Shown here: piece after piece, positions 2,999 to 9,558 of the stretch
Layout: every line of letters starts with the position of its first letter
How positions within the stretch are numbered: position 1 is the stretch's first letter
Sequence record: PP952733.1
Reading direction: 5' to 3' (one strand)
DNA length: 64,000 nucleotides
Source: Escherichia phage vB_EcoM_H12
Notes under the pieces: generated by a model
Databases searched by the model: none
What the model saw: only the letters and a program-made list of their open reading frames with translations
What the model was told of the DNA's origin: nothing
Position numbers and translations under genes: made by a program

Positions 2999-3013
2999 TA
3001 GAGGTAAATTGGA

Positions 3014-3460
3014 ATGGCTATGTATCAGCAATATTCCCCTAAAGACGTTGTGTGTAGCTGGAATGGTATTGCCATTGAAGGCTTTGCCCCAGACTCATTC
3101 TTACGTCTACAGAGAACATCACCACTTGTGACACCAGTTGTAGGTGCAGGTGGTCAGGTTGCTCTGACAAGAAATGCAGACAAGACAGGTACTATTGAGA
3201 TTGAGCTAATGCAGACTTCTCTCTCTAATCAGATGCTTTCTGCAATTCAAGCTAAACAAGACAATATGGAACTTGAAGAAGATATCTCTTCTAACTTCGT
3301 AATCTACGACCCATCAGGCTCTGTTCTGGCAACTGGTATTAATGCTTGGTTGCAGGAATTACCACAGATTGAACTTGGTCGTGACCAGAACTCTAAAACT
3401 TGGATTTTTGGTTGTGAGAAGCTAGACTACACTTCTACAATTCCAGCGTCAAGTGTTTAA
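3014..3460 (+). CDS. putative tail tube protein
   Basis: 148 aa; between sheath-sized ORF and chaperones; followed by an intrinsic terminator. Confidence 0.5.
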   Translation: MAMYQQYSPKDVVCSWNGIAIEGFAPDSFLRLQRTSPLVTPVVGAGGQVALTRNADKTGTIEIELMQTSLSNQMLSAIQAKQDNMELEEDISSNFVIYDPSGSVLATGINAWLQELPQIELGRDQNSKTWIFGCEKLDYTSTIPASSV

Positions 3461-3472
3461 TAAATCCTATAA

Positions 3473-3504
3473 GGGGGAGACTTTAAAAGGTCTTCCCCTT
3501 TTTT
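3473..3504 (+). terminator. rho-independent terminator after tube gene
   Basis: GGGGGAGAC / GTCTTCCCC stem (one G-U pair), loop TTTAAAAG, then TTTTTT. Confidence 0.55.
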
Positions 3505-3533
3505 GTTTCTTTTAAAAGTATTAAGGAATCACA

Positions 3534-3932
3534 ATGAAAACAGAATCTAGAGTAATTAATGGTAAGAAAGTAAATATCGTTCTGCTTGGGGCAAGAGATG
3601 GTATTAAGATGTCTATGAAGTTGGGTAAAATTGTTGTTCCAACATTTGCACAGATGCTGTCAAGCCTGACTGATAAAGATAAGAAAGAAGCTCCAATGGT
3701 TCCATTTAAAGAACTTGTTGAAGCTTGTTTTGACAGAATTGAAGAAATTAACCTTGAAGAAATGGCTACCCTGTTATTTCAAGGGGCAACTGTTGATGAC
3801 TTCCCACTTAATATTGATACATACTTCCAAGCAAACTATGGTGAATTTATTGATTACTTAGTATTTGCGCTGGAGGCAAACTTCGGAAGTTTTTTCGAAG
3901 CAAGCATTTTCAAAAGCCTAACTTCTCAGTAA
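3534..3932 (+). CDS. tail assembly chaperone (short form)
   Basis: 132 aa acidic protein directly upstream of the tape measure; slippery TTTTTTC near its 3' end. Confidence 0.55.
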   Translation: MKTESRVINGKKVNIVLLGARDGIKMSMKLGKIVVPTFAQMLSSLTDKDKKEAPMVPFKELVEACFDRIEEINLEEMATLLFQGATVDDFPLNIDTYFQANYGEFIDYLVFALEANFGSFFEASIFKSLTSQ

Positions 3933-4173
3933 ACATGGGTAACACTCTACAGACACCACTGACTGATGCTGCTGTAGAGGCAACCTATGAAGAAGCAGAC
4001 GAGATGAAATTTGTGCTTGCTATTTATGGTATGGAAGGGTGTAAAGAAACACTTGACCAACTCTTTGCTATGACATTCTCTGATTTATTATCATTGAGAC
4101 AATTTCTTGAGATTCAGAGGTCGTATAAAGAGGAAATTGCTTACAACGAACTTAGAAGAGCAGGAAAAATGTA

Positions 4174-4174
<1 letters not shown>
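3854..4174 (+). CDS. -1 frame extension of the tail assembly chaperone (candidate frameshift product 3534-4174)
   Basis: Frame 2 is open from 3854 and overlaps the 3' end of 3534-3932; T_TTT_TTC at 3890-3896 is in the correct register; ends at the tape measure start. Confidence 0.4.

Positions 4175-9558
<5,384 letters not shown>

What the first reader, a model, noticed from the sequence alone, without database searches (positions are those of the whole stretch)
3534..4174. Candidate programmed -1 ribosomal frameshift in the tail assembly chaperone gene pair
Seen in sequence: the heptamer T_TTT_TTC (3890-3896) lies in the correct zero-frame register 36 nt before the stop of the 132 aa ORF. The -1 frame is open from 3854 and runs to 4174, ending exactly at the tape measure ATG. 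Established knowledge: tailed phages conserve a G/GT-type frameshift in the chaperone genes just upstream of the tape measure. The track's second ORF (3935-4174) would then be the C-terminal extension of a fusion protein.
Basis: partly seen in the sequence, partly recalled or inferred. Interest (0 to 1): 0.45.

Follow-up and report, generated by a model that had tools for sequence, protein, structure and literature searches.

The report
Tail chaperone -1 frameshift, real, known
This Felix O1-like E. coli phage almost certainly makes a second, longer tail-assembly chaperone by letting ribosomes slip back one base at a conserved TTTTTTC site just before the tape measure gene; this is an ordinary, already-described phage trick that most database records for this genus still annotate as two separate genes.

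Summary
T_TTT_TTC (3890-3896) lies in zero-frame register in the 132-aa chaperone ORF (3534-3932). The -1 frame is open from 3854 to 4174, and its stop overlaps the tape measure ATG (TAATG).

The window is a Felixounavirus (99.5% to vB_EcoM_DE17).
- 60 of 61 related loci keep agT_TTT_TT(C/T) in the same register with an open -1 extension. They span five-plus Ounavirinae lineages and metagenomic relatives at 24-30% identity, some at 61-65% GC.
- TTTTTTC occurs once on the sense strand in about 19,650 codons of this window.
- The supposed start of the 79-aa ORF (ATG 3935) has no Shine-Dalgarno sequence. It is ATA in one Felixounavirus contig and absent in Kolesnikvirus, Yersinia and Pectobacterium relatives.

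The predicted products are G (132 aa) and G-T (213 aa, junction ...GSFF|RSKHF...).

No stimulatory structure sits at canonical spacing. A GGAGG lies 13 nt upstream and is a plausible dnaX-like stimulator, but this is inferred.

It is not novel. Genome announcements for Moogle, Michonne and Mijalis report this frameshift, and the Mordin record carries a joined CDS. No experimental proof was found. Interest is low.

The parts
3471..3510 (+). Rho-independent terminator between the tube gene and the chaperone gene. It is context: it probably lowers transcription into the chaperone and tape measure genes.
   Evidence: A 13-bp stem followed by a T-run. It is annotated as a terminator at the homologous place in wV8 and Mordin.
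3534..3932 (+). Zero-frame tail assembly chaperone ORF (G-like product, 132 aa), with an AAGGA ribosome-binding site at 3523-3527.
   Evidence: Pfam PF21822 Phage_TAC_15, E=2e-19, 70.8 bits against a cut-off of 22. phrog_1613, 'tail assembly chaperone', E=1.4e-48. Anti-SD duplex -6.1 kcal/mol.
3872..3876 (+). Internal Shine-Dalgarno-like GGAGG, 13 nt 5' of the heptamer. Candidate dnaX-type frameshift stimulator (inferred).
   Evidence: Anti-SD duplex -9.3 kcal/mol, in the top 0.5% of local windows. Only 11 internal GGAGG occur in 57 kb of coding sense strand. A strong SD-like element is present in 29 of 38 unique relatives. These include a clade that encodes it with different amino acids (AAGGAG, GGGAG, AGGGAG). 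It is absent in Kolesnikvirus, L038, Yersinia P778 and L051. The spacing range for -1 frameshifting is 9-14 nt (PMC5009743).
3890..3896 (+). Slippery heptamer T_TTT_TTC (U_UUU_UUC), with tRNA-Phe in both the P and A sites.
   Evidence: Invariant in 60 of 61 loci, including contigs of 61-65% GC where AGT and TTT are disfavoured codons. All 55 sequence pairs use identical codons at each of AGT, TTT and TTC. H_HH.U_UU.Y is in the high-efficiency class in E. coli (PMC4066793).
3896..3932 (+). Dual-coded overlap. The zero frame reads EASIFKSLTSQ* and the -1 frame reads RSKHFQKPNFSV.
   Evidence: Synonymous codon identity rises from a baseline of about 0.35-0.6 to 0.82-0.92 across 3885-3915. The string TTTTTTCGAAGCAAGCATTTTCAAAA is identical in Kolesnikvirus despite about 42% protein identity.
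3896..4174 (+). -1 frame extension (T part, 92 aa plus stop) of the predicted 213-aa G-T fusion. It includes the ORF annotated in databases as a separate 79-aa gene (3935-4174).
   Evidence: phrog_4963. T segments of 12 lineages align from the first residue after the shift, and the Pro at position 8, upstream of ATG 3935, is nearly invariant.
3934..3989 (+). Hairpin that includes ATG 3935 in its 5' arm and starts 37 nt 3' of the heptamer. Its role is uncertain, and it is too far away to be a canonical stimulator.
   Evidence: -22.2 kcal/mol, z = -2.5. 81.9% of cells are paired, against 27-51% in the slid controls, and 8 pairs have compensatory changes. It is present in Felixounavirus, Mooglevirus and Suspvirus but not in more distant clades.
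4174..6402 (+). Tape measure protein gene, the client of the chaperones. Its ATG overlaps the -1 ORF stop (TAATG).
   Evidence: Pfam TMP_3 and phrog_4036.

Best explanation
This is a lambda G/GT-type (P2 E/E+E'-type) programmed -1 ribosomal frameshift in the tail assembly chaperone gene of a Felixounavirus.

Most ribosomes translate 3534-3932 and release the 132-aa chaperone. A minority slip back one base when tRNA-Phe occupies both UUU (P site, 3891-3893) and UUC (A site, 3894-3896). Both tRNAs re-pair on UUU/UUU, and translation continues from CGA at 3896 in the -1 frame to the stop at 4172-4174. The product is a 213-aa fusion with junction ...ANFGSFF|RSKHFQKP....

By analogy with lambda gpG/gpGT, both products bind the tape measure protein, and the T part recruits the tube protein. 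This fixes a chaperone-to-fusion ratio at the level of translation.

Shown by sequence and comparison: the site, its register, the open frame, their conservation, and the absence of a conserved independent start.

Inferred: that slippage actually occurs, its efficiency, the stimulatory role of the GGAGG 13 nt upstream, and the functions of the G and T parts.
For: Context and family:
- Gene order and family membership fit.
- The heptamer is in register and the -1 frame is open to the tape measure start.

Conservation:
- 60 of 61 related loci (37 unique contexts) keep agT_TTT_TT(C/T) with an open -1 extension of about 90-100 aa. They include Moogle-, Susp- and Kolesnikvirus, Yersinia P778, Pectobacterium Wc4-1 and metagenomic contigs at 24-30% identity and 61-65% GC.
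- The three codons of the site are never synonymously changed, although neighbouring codons are.
- TTTTTTC is otherwise absent from the sense strand of this window's genes.

Weakness of the independent start:
- ATG 3935 has an anti-SD duplex of +0.7 kcal/mol, rank 89 of 94 genes.
- It is ATA in contig L019.
[quoted passage not shown] Annotators there left a 236-nt gap or called only a 114-nt fragment.
- T segments align from the shift site itself.

Other support:
- The phage CL1 record has a T7 run and a single 213-aa CDS with exactly the predicted junction.
- U_UU.U_UU.C is a high-efficiency motif in E. coli (PMC4066793).
- An SD-like stimulator sits at 13 nt, within the 9-14 nt range.
- The same frameshift has been annotated or reported in sister phages.
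Against: - I found no experimental evidence (fusion peptide, reporter assay) for any Felix O1-like phage. All support is comparative.
- No RNA structure lies at the canonical 5-9 nt spacing.
- The SD-like element is missing in five relatives that keep the heptamer. Synonymous conservation at its codons is not above the gene's baseline.
- In Felixounavirus an ATG lies 2 nt after the zero-frame stop, so some coupled re-initiation giving a free 79-aa product cannot be excluded.
- Conservation of the SFF amino-acid motif partly confounds conservation of the nucleotides. It does not explain the invariant codon choice.
Confidence: 0.87

Rival explanations
1. Two independent genes, as most GenBank and RefSeq Felixounavirus records annotate them. 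On this view the 79-aa protein is initiated at ATG 3935, for example by termination-reinitiation after TAA 3930-3932, and no fusion is made.
For: An ATG lies 2 nt after the zero-frame stop. wV8, radambza, Pr103Blw and many others annotate two CDSs. phrog_4963 models the 79-aa ORF as a stand-alone family.
Against: - There is no SD (+0.7 kcal/mol, rank 89 of 94).
- The ATG is sequestered in a conserved hairpin.
- The ATG is ATA in L019.
- Start position is not conserved among Felixounavirus, Suspvirus and Mooglevirus, and there is no start in Kolesnikvirus, L038 or Wc4-1.
- This view does not explain the invariant heptamer and its codon choice.
- It does not explain conservation of the -1 frame peptide upstream of the ATG.
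Confidence: 0.06
2. Transcriptional slippage. RNA polymerase adds one extra U at the T6 run, and normal translation of that mRNA subpopulation yields the same fusion protein.
For: The site is a homopolymer. The CL1 record shows that a T7 version encodes the fusion in a single frame. Slippage is known to substitute for ribosomal frameshifting in some genes (PMC5009743).
Against: Efficient slippage in bacteria is described for runs of about 9 A or T (PMC5009743). Here the run is fixed at 6-7 in all 60 loci and never lengthens. The run is always in X_XXY_YYZ register. An SD-like element sits at frameshift-stimulatory spacing, which is irrelevant to the polymerase.
Confidence: 0.05
3. A fortuitous heptamer with no recoding: the T-run simply encodes a conserved Ser-Phe-Phe motif.
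For: SFF is a conserved protein motif. About 0.1 in-register heptamers of any kind are expected in such an overlap.
Against: - Codon choice is invariant: AGT (19% of Ser codons in this window's genes), then TTT, then TTC. This holds even in GC-rich relatives.
- Where Ser is replaced (Thr ACT, Gly GGT) the codon still ends in T.
- A -1 ORF of conserved length and sequence always follows.
Confidence: 0.02

Closest known systems
Phage lambda gpG/gpGT tail assembly chaperone -1 frameshift (Levin et al. 1993; Xu, Hendrix & Duda 2004, Mol Cell 16:11; summarised in PMC5009743)
   Same: The position is the same, between the major tail or tube gene and the tape measure gene. A short ORF carries a slippery heptamer near its 3' end, and a -1 extension ends at the tape measure start. 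No downstream structure is required. Neither product is expected in virions.
   Different: The heptamer is U_UUU_UUC rather than G_GGA_AAG. The phage is a myovirus, and the chaperone belongs to Pfam Phage_TAC_15. I ran no direct comparison with gpG; a PDB sequence search of the fusion found nothing significant. A strong SD-like GGAGG lies 13 nt upstream. The efficiency is unknown.
Phage P2 E/E+E' (myovirus counterpart; efficiency 2-3 times that of lambda, according to PMC5009743)
   Same: It is a contractile-tail phage. The chaperone pair lies between the tube gene and the tape measure gene, and a -1 shift takes place on a T-rich heptamer (T_TTT_TTG in P2; recalled from memory, not checked here).
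   Different: The protein family is different, and I tested no homology to the P2 proteins.
Tape measure chaperone frameshift annotated in Felix O1-like Citrobacter phages Moogle, Michonne, Mijalis and Mordin (PMC4319497, PMC4591319, PMC5543628; GenBank KT363872)
   Same: The genes are orthologous (75% identity for the G part, 79% for the T part). The heptamer, its register and the upstream GGAGG are identical.
   Different: The genus is different (Mooglevirus). The zero-frame tail is 1-3 codons longer, and the internal ATG sits elsewhere. Those reports are annotations, not experiments.
E. coli dnaX -1 frameshift signal
   Same: An SD-like sequence upstream of the slippery heptamer, within the 9-14 nt range given for -1 frameshifting.
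   Different: dnaX uses A_AAA_AAG and has a strong 3' stem-loop that is essential for its 50% efficiency. Here there is no structure at that spacing. The SD-like element is also not universal in the family.

Membership tests
G/GT-type tail assembly chaperone programmed -1 frameshift (Xu, Hendrix & Duda 2004) | The gene pair lies immediately upstream of the tape measure gene and downstream of the major tail or tube gene. | tested here: met
   Sheath 1646-2998, tube 3014-3460, chaperone 3534-3932, -1 ORF to 4174, tape measure 4174-6402.
G/GT-type tail assembly chaperone programmed -1 frameshift (Xu, Hendrix & Duda 2004) | The second ORF overlaps the first in the -1 frame, and a canonical X_XXY_YYZ heptamer lies in zero-frame register inside the overlap. 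| tested here: met
   The overlap is 3854-3932. T_TTT_TTC at 3890-3896 is the only in-register heptamer in the overlap.
G/GT-type tail assembly chaperone programmed -1 frameshift (Xu, Hendrix & Duda 2004) | The slippery site and the two-frame arrangement are conserved among relatives, beyond protein sequence conservation. | tested here: met
   60 of 61 loci, down to 24-30% identity and across 37-65% GC. There is a peak of synonymous-site conservation at the site.
G/GT-type tail assembly chaperone programmed -1 frameshift (Xu, Hendrix & Duda 2004) | The downstream ORF lacks its own conserved translation start. | tested here: met
   No SD at ATG 3935. ATG is ATA in L019. There is no start in Kolesnikvirus, L038 or Wc4-1.
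G/GT-type tail assembly chaperone programmed -1 frameshift (Xu, Hendrix & Duda 2004) | The fusion protein is made at a low, fixed ratio and is required for tail assembly. | not testable with these tools
   This needs proteomics, reporter assays or genetics. I found no published experiment for Felix O1-like phages.
Pfam PF21822 Phage_TAC_15 | hmmscan score above the curated gathering threshold. | tested here: met
   70.8 bits against a cut-off of 22, covering residues 9-124.
dnaX-type stimulated -1 frameshift | An SD-like sequence 9-14 nt 5' of the shift site. | tested here: met
   GGAGG at 3872-3876, spacing 13 nt, -9.3 kcal/mol. The range comes from PMC5009743. Whether it actually stimulates was not tested.
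dnaX-type stimulated -1 frameshift | A stable stem-loop a few nucleotides 3' of the shift site. | tested here: not met
   3897-3960 folds at -3.4 kcal/mol, z = +1.19. The 20-sequence alignment gives no conserved 3' structure. The nearest hairpin starts 37 nt downstream.
Intrinsic terminator (considered for 3870-3896) | A GC-rich stem-loop followed by a T-run. | tested here: inconclusive
   The pattern scan flags a 6-pair stem with 3 GC pairs followed by AAGTTTTTTC. The stem is weak and lies inside a coding region, and the T-run is explained by the heptamer. I rejected it as a functional terminator on these grounds only.

The most novel reading that the evidence does not exclude
In the Felixounavirus, Mooglevirus and Suspvirus clade the chaperone frameshift may use an unusual pair of signals. 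First, a dnaX-like internal Shine-Dalgarno sequence (GGAGG, 13 nt upstream) may stimulate slippage on U_UUU_UUC without any 3' structure. Second, a covarying hairpin (3934-3989) that buries the in-frame ATG just after the zero-frame stop may suppress independent initiation, so that the T domain is made only as a fusion. A related point is that the two-gene annotation carried by nearly all the Felixounavirus records I inspected would be wrong (296 records in the phage collection match this region).
Probability: 0.35. Interest if true: 0.3.

Novelty: already known. Interest (0 to 1): 0.15.

Why it matters
The main value is for annotation. Nearly all the Felixounavirus records I inspected list two 'tail assembly chaperone' genes where there is probably one gene with two products (132 aa and 213 aa). 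The 79-aa protein is probably not made on its own.

For frameshifting biology it adds a clean comparative example. A slippery heptamer is embedded in a conserved NFxSFF motif and held invariant from 37% to 65% GC. It often comes with a 5' SD-like element and has no 3' structure. It does not open a new question.

Tried and rejected
- **3' stimulator at canonical spacing.** Folding 3897-3960, 3901-3940 and 3860-3960 gave z-scores of +1.19, +0.53 and +0.11. RNAalifold on 20 relatives found only a weak fold that involves the heptamer itself, with no covariation.
- **Rfam.** A permissive scan of 3400-4400 gave only sub-threshold chance hits.
- **Local hairpin.** CUUCGGAA/UUUCGAAG around the T-run is broken in Kolesnikvirus, and I did not pursue it.
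- **SD-like element as a selected feature.** The tests are mixed. It is strongly enriched against local background in 29 of 38 contexts and is re-created with different amino acids in one clade. Its synonymous sites are no more conserved than the gene average, and five relatives lack it.
- **Solved structures.** A sequence search with the fusion protein found nothing significant.
- **T-run length variants.** A search of IMG/VR found 28 contigs, all with a 7-nt gap in the pattern, so no 6- or 8-nt variant of the heptamer turned up.
- **Literature.** I found annotation-level reports only and no experimental paper for Felix O1-like phages.
- **Not run.** I skipped the large protein database searches and structure prediction because they would not change the verdict.

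Full report
**What the window is.** A megablast of 3000-6500 finds 296 phage records. The best is Escherichia phage vB_EcoM_DE17 at 99.5%, followed by wV8-like Felixounavirus members at 97-99%. The local gene order is:
- tail sheath, 1646-2998 (phrog_205);
- tube-like structural protein, 3014-3460;
- a rho-independent terminator, 3471-3510;
- a 132-aa ORF, 3534-3932, that matches Pfam Phage_TAC_15 (70.8 bits, cut-off 22) and phrog_1613, 'tail assembly chaperone';
- a 79-aa ORF, 3935-4174 (phrog_4963, 'tail assembly chaperone');
- the 742-aa tape measure protein from 4174.

**Checking the observation.**
- TTTTTTC occupies 3890-3896 with codons AGT|TTT|TTC in the frame of ATG 3534.
- The zero-frame stop is at 3930-3932.
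- The -1 frame is open from 3854 to the TAA at 4172-4174, which overlaps the tape measure ATG as TAATG.
- A -1 shift gives ...ANFGSFF|RSKHFQKPNFSVNMGNT..., a 213-aa fusion of 121 + 92 residues.

Taken alone, an in-register heptamer in a 26-codon overlap is not rare. There are 84 such heptamers in 19,651 codons of this window, so about 0.1 is expected. This particular heptamer is exceptional. TTTTTTC occurs on the sense strand of the 95 candidate genes only here, in any register, and TTTTTTT never occurs. On both strands of the window there are 11 copies against 28.6 expected.

**Comparative evidence.** I collected 62 related loci from annotated phage records and from IMG/VR.
- In 60 of the 61 I screened, agT_TTT_TTC is present in the same register. 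One clade has agT/acT/ggT_TTT_TTT instead.
- The site falls at a conserved NFxSFF motif, and the -1 frame is open from there to just before the tape measure start.
- The set covers Felixouna-, Moogle-, Susp- and Kolesnikvirus, Yersinia phage P778, Pectobacterium phage Wc4-1, and metagenomic contigs at only 24-30% protein identity.
- Several contigs are 61-65% GC, where AGT and TTT are disfavoured codons.
- In a codon alignment of 11 lineages, the fraction of same-residue pairs that use the same codon is about 0.35-0.6 along the gene. It reaches 1.00 at each of AGT, TTT and TTC, and 0.82-0.92 across 3885-3915.
- In a distant blastn search, the only stretch of this region that still matched the Erwinia phages was the 41 nt around the heptamer.
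- The single exception, L056, keeps a CTT TTT run with an in-register U_UUU tetramer.

**The second ORF does not look independently translated.**
- ATG 3935 has no Shine-Dalgarno sequence. The anti-SD duplex is +0.7 kcal/mol, rank 89 of 94 candidate genes, against a median of -5.8.
- Its position is not conserved among Felixouna-, Susp- and Mooglevirus.
- It is ATA in one Felixounavirus contig, L019, whose T part is otherwise intact.
[quoted passage not shown] Annotators there left the region empty or called a 114-nt fragment.
- The -1 translations of 12 lineages align from the first residue after the shift, with near-constant length. A nearly invariant Pro lies at position 8, upstream of the Felixounavirus ATG.
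- The GenBank record of phage CL1 has seven T's. It therefore carries a single 213-aa 'tape measure chaperone' CDS with exactly the predicted junction. This may be a homopolymer sequencing error or a real variant.

**Mechanism.**
- U_UU.U_UU.C belongs to the H_HH.U_UU.Y class, among the most efficient heptamers in E. coli. It gives more than 0.1% shifting without a stimulator and is under-represented in E. coli genes (Sharma et al. 2014, PMC4066793).
- I found no stimulatory structure at the usual spacing. The 64 nt after the heptamer fold no better than shuffles (z = +1.19), and the alignment fold shows nothing conserved.
- GGAGG sits at 3872-3876, 13 nt upstream, inside the 9-14 nt range reported for SD stimulation of -1 frameshifting (PMC5009743).
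- It pairs with the anti-SD at -9.3 kcal/mol, stronger than the start-site scores printed for the neighbouring genes. Only 11 internal GGAGG exist in 57 kb of coding sense strand.
- A comparably strong SD-like element is present in 29 of 38 unique relatives. One clade encodes it with different amino acids (AAGGAG, GGGAG, AGGGAG) at 11-12 nt spacing.
- Five relatives lack the element, and its synonymous sites are not unusually conserved.
- I therefore treat SD stimulation as a reasonable but unproven part of the mechanism, at about even odds.

**A downstream hairpin.**
- A hairpin at 3934-3989 (-22 kcal/mol, z = -2.5) begins 37 nt after the heptamer. It shows compensatory changes between Felixouna-, Susp- and Mooglevirus: 81.9% of cells paired against 27-51% in slid controls, and 8 pairs with double changes.
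- It is too far from the heptamer to act as a canonical stimulator, and it is absent in the distant clades that keep the heptamer.
- It contains ATG 3935 in its 5' arm, so it might suppress independent initiation. That is speculation.

**Rivals.**
- *Independent initiation* may contribute a little in Felixounavirus. It cannot explain the conserved features.
- *Transcriptional slippage* would give the same protein. It is disfavoured because the run stays at 6-7 T, whereas efficient slippage is described for runs of about 9. The SD-like element is also irrelevant to RNA polymerase.
- *Pure chance* is excluded by the invariant codon choice.

**Comparison with what is known.**
- This is the G/GT paradigm of Xu, Hendrix & Duda (2004), here in a myovirus as in P2 E/E+E'.
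- It has already been reported for Felix O1-like phages. [quoted passage not shown] Mijalis (PMC5543628).
- The Mordin record carries a joined CDS over the orthologous pair.
- Most Felixounavirus records, including RefSeq wV8, still list two separate genes.
- I found no experimental demonstration in this group.

**Verdict.** The finding is already known in kind and in this phage group, so interest is low. The practical consequence is a correction of annotation.

Noticed in passing
L062 (OK040806.1, Escherichia phage CL1), locus 274-915; homologous to window 3534-4174: The T-run has 7 T's instead of 6, so the record carries one uninterrupted 213-aa 'tape measure chaperone' CDS equal to the predicted fusion. 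This is either a homopolymer sequencing error or a natural variant that would make only G-T in the zero frame.
   Followed up: partly
L019 (IMGVR_UViG_3300045988_004167), about 1900; homologous to window 3935-3937: The ATG of the '79-aa gene' is ATA (N-I-G instead of N-M-G), and the rest of the -1 ORF is intact. This is consistent with the ATG being dispensable.
   Followed up: yes
window 3934-3989: A hairpin starts 2 nt after the zero-frame stop and includes ATG 3935. It has compensatory changes among Felixouna-, Susp- and Mooglevirus (for example GC->AU in 6 sequences and AU->CG in 7). It is absent in Kolesnikvirus, Yersinia and Pectobacterium relatives. Its function is unknown.
   Followed up: partly
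window 3471-3510: A strong rho-independent terminator (13-bp stem plus T-run) lies between the tube gene and the chaperone gene. It is also annotated in wV8 and Mordin. It probably steps down transcription from the abundant sheath and tube genes to the chaperone and tape measure genes.
   Followed up: partly
window, whole 64 kb: TTTTTTC is depleted: 11 copies on both strands against 28.6 expected from shuffles. TTTTTTT is absent from the sense strand of all 95 candidate genes. This is consistent with avoidance of slippery or error-prone T-runs.
   Followed up: partly
L057 1857-1863; L059 and L060 1863-1869; L061 1062-1068: GC-rich distant relatives carry a second in-register slippery heptamer, A_AAT_TTC, 12 nt upstream of T_TTT_TTC, and the -1 frame is already open there. 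The window has AAC TTC at that place, which is not slippery.
   Followed up: no
window 3885-3887: The Gly codon two codons before the shift is GGA in all 8 of the 11 aligned lineages that have Gly there, although GGA is only 15% of Gly codons in this phage. The reason is unknown. It may relate to the local GGAAG or to the small hairpin around the T-run.
   Followed up: no
L056 1536-1570 (IMGVR_UViG_3300035050_000006): This is the only relative without the heptamer. It reads GAC CTT TTT ACC (GDLFT) and keeps only an in-register U_UUU tetramer, with the -1 frame open. It may be a weaker or different recoding site.
   Followed up: partly
window 3890-3915 and L006/L009/L038: The 26-nt string TTTTTTCGAAGCAAGCATTTTCAAAA is identical between Felixounavirus and Kolesnikvirus, although the chaperone proteins are only about 42% identical. 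Dual coding is the simplest explanation. I did not test for an additional RNA-level role.
   Followed up: partly
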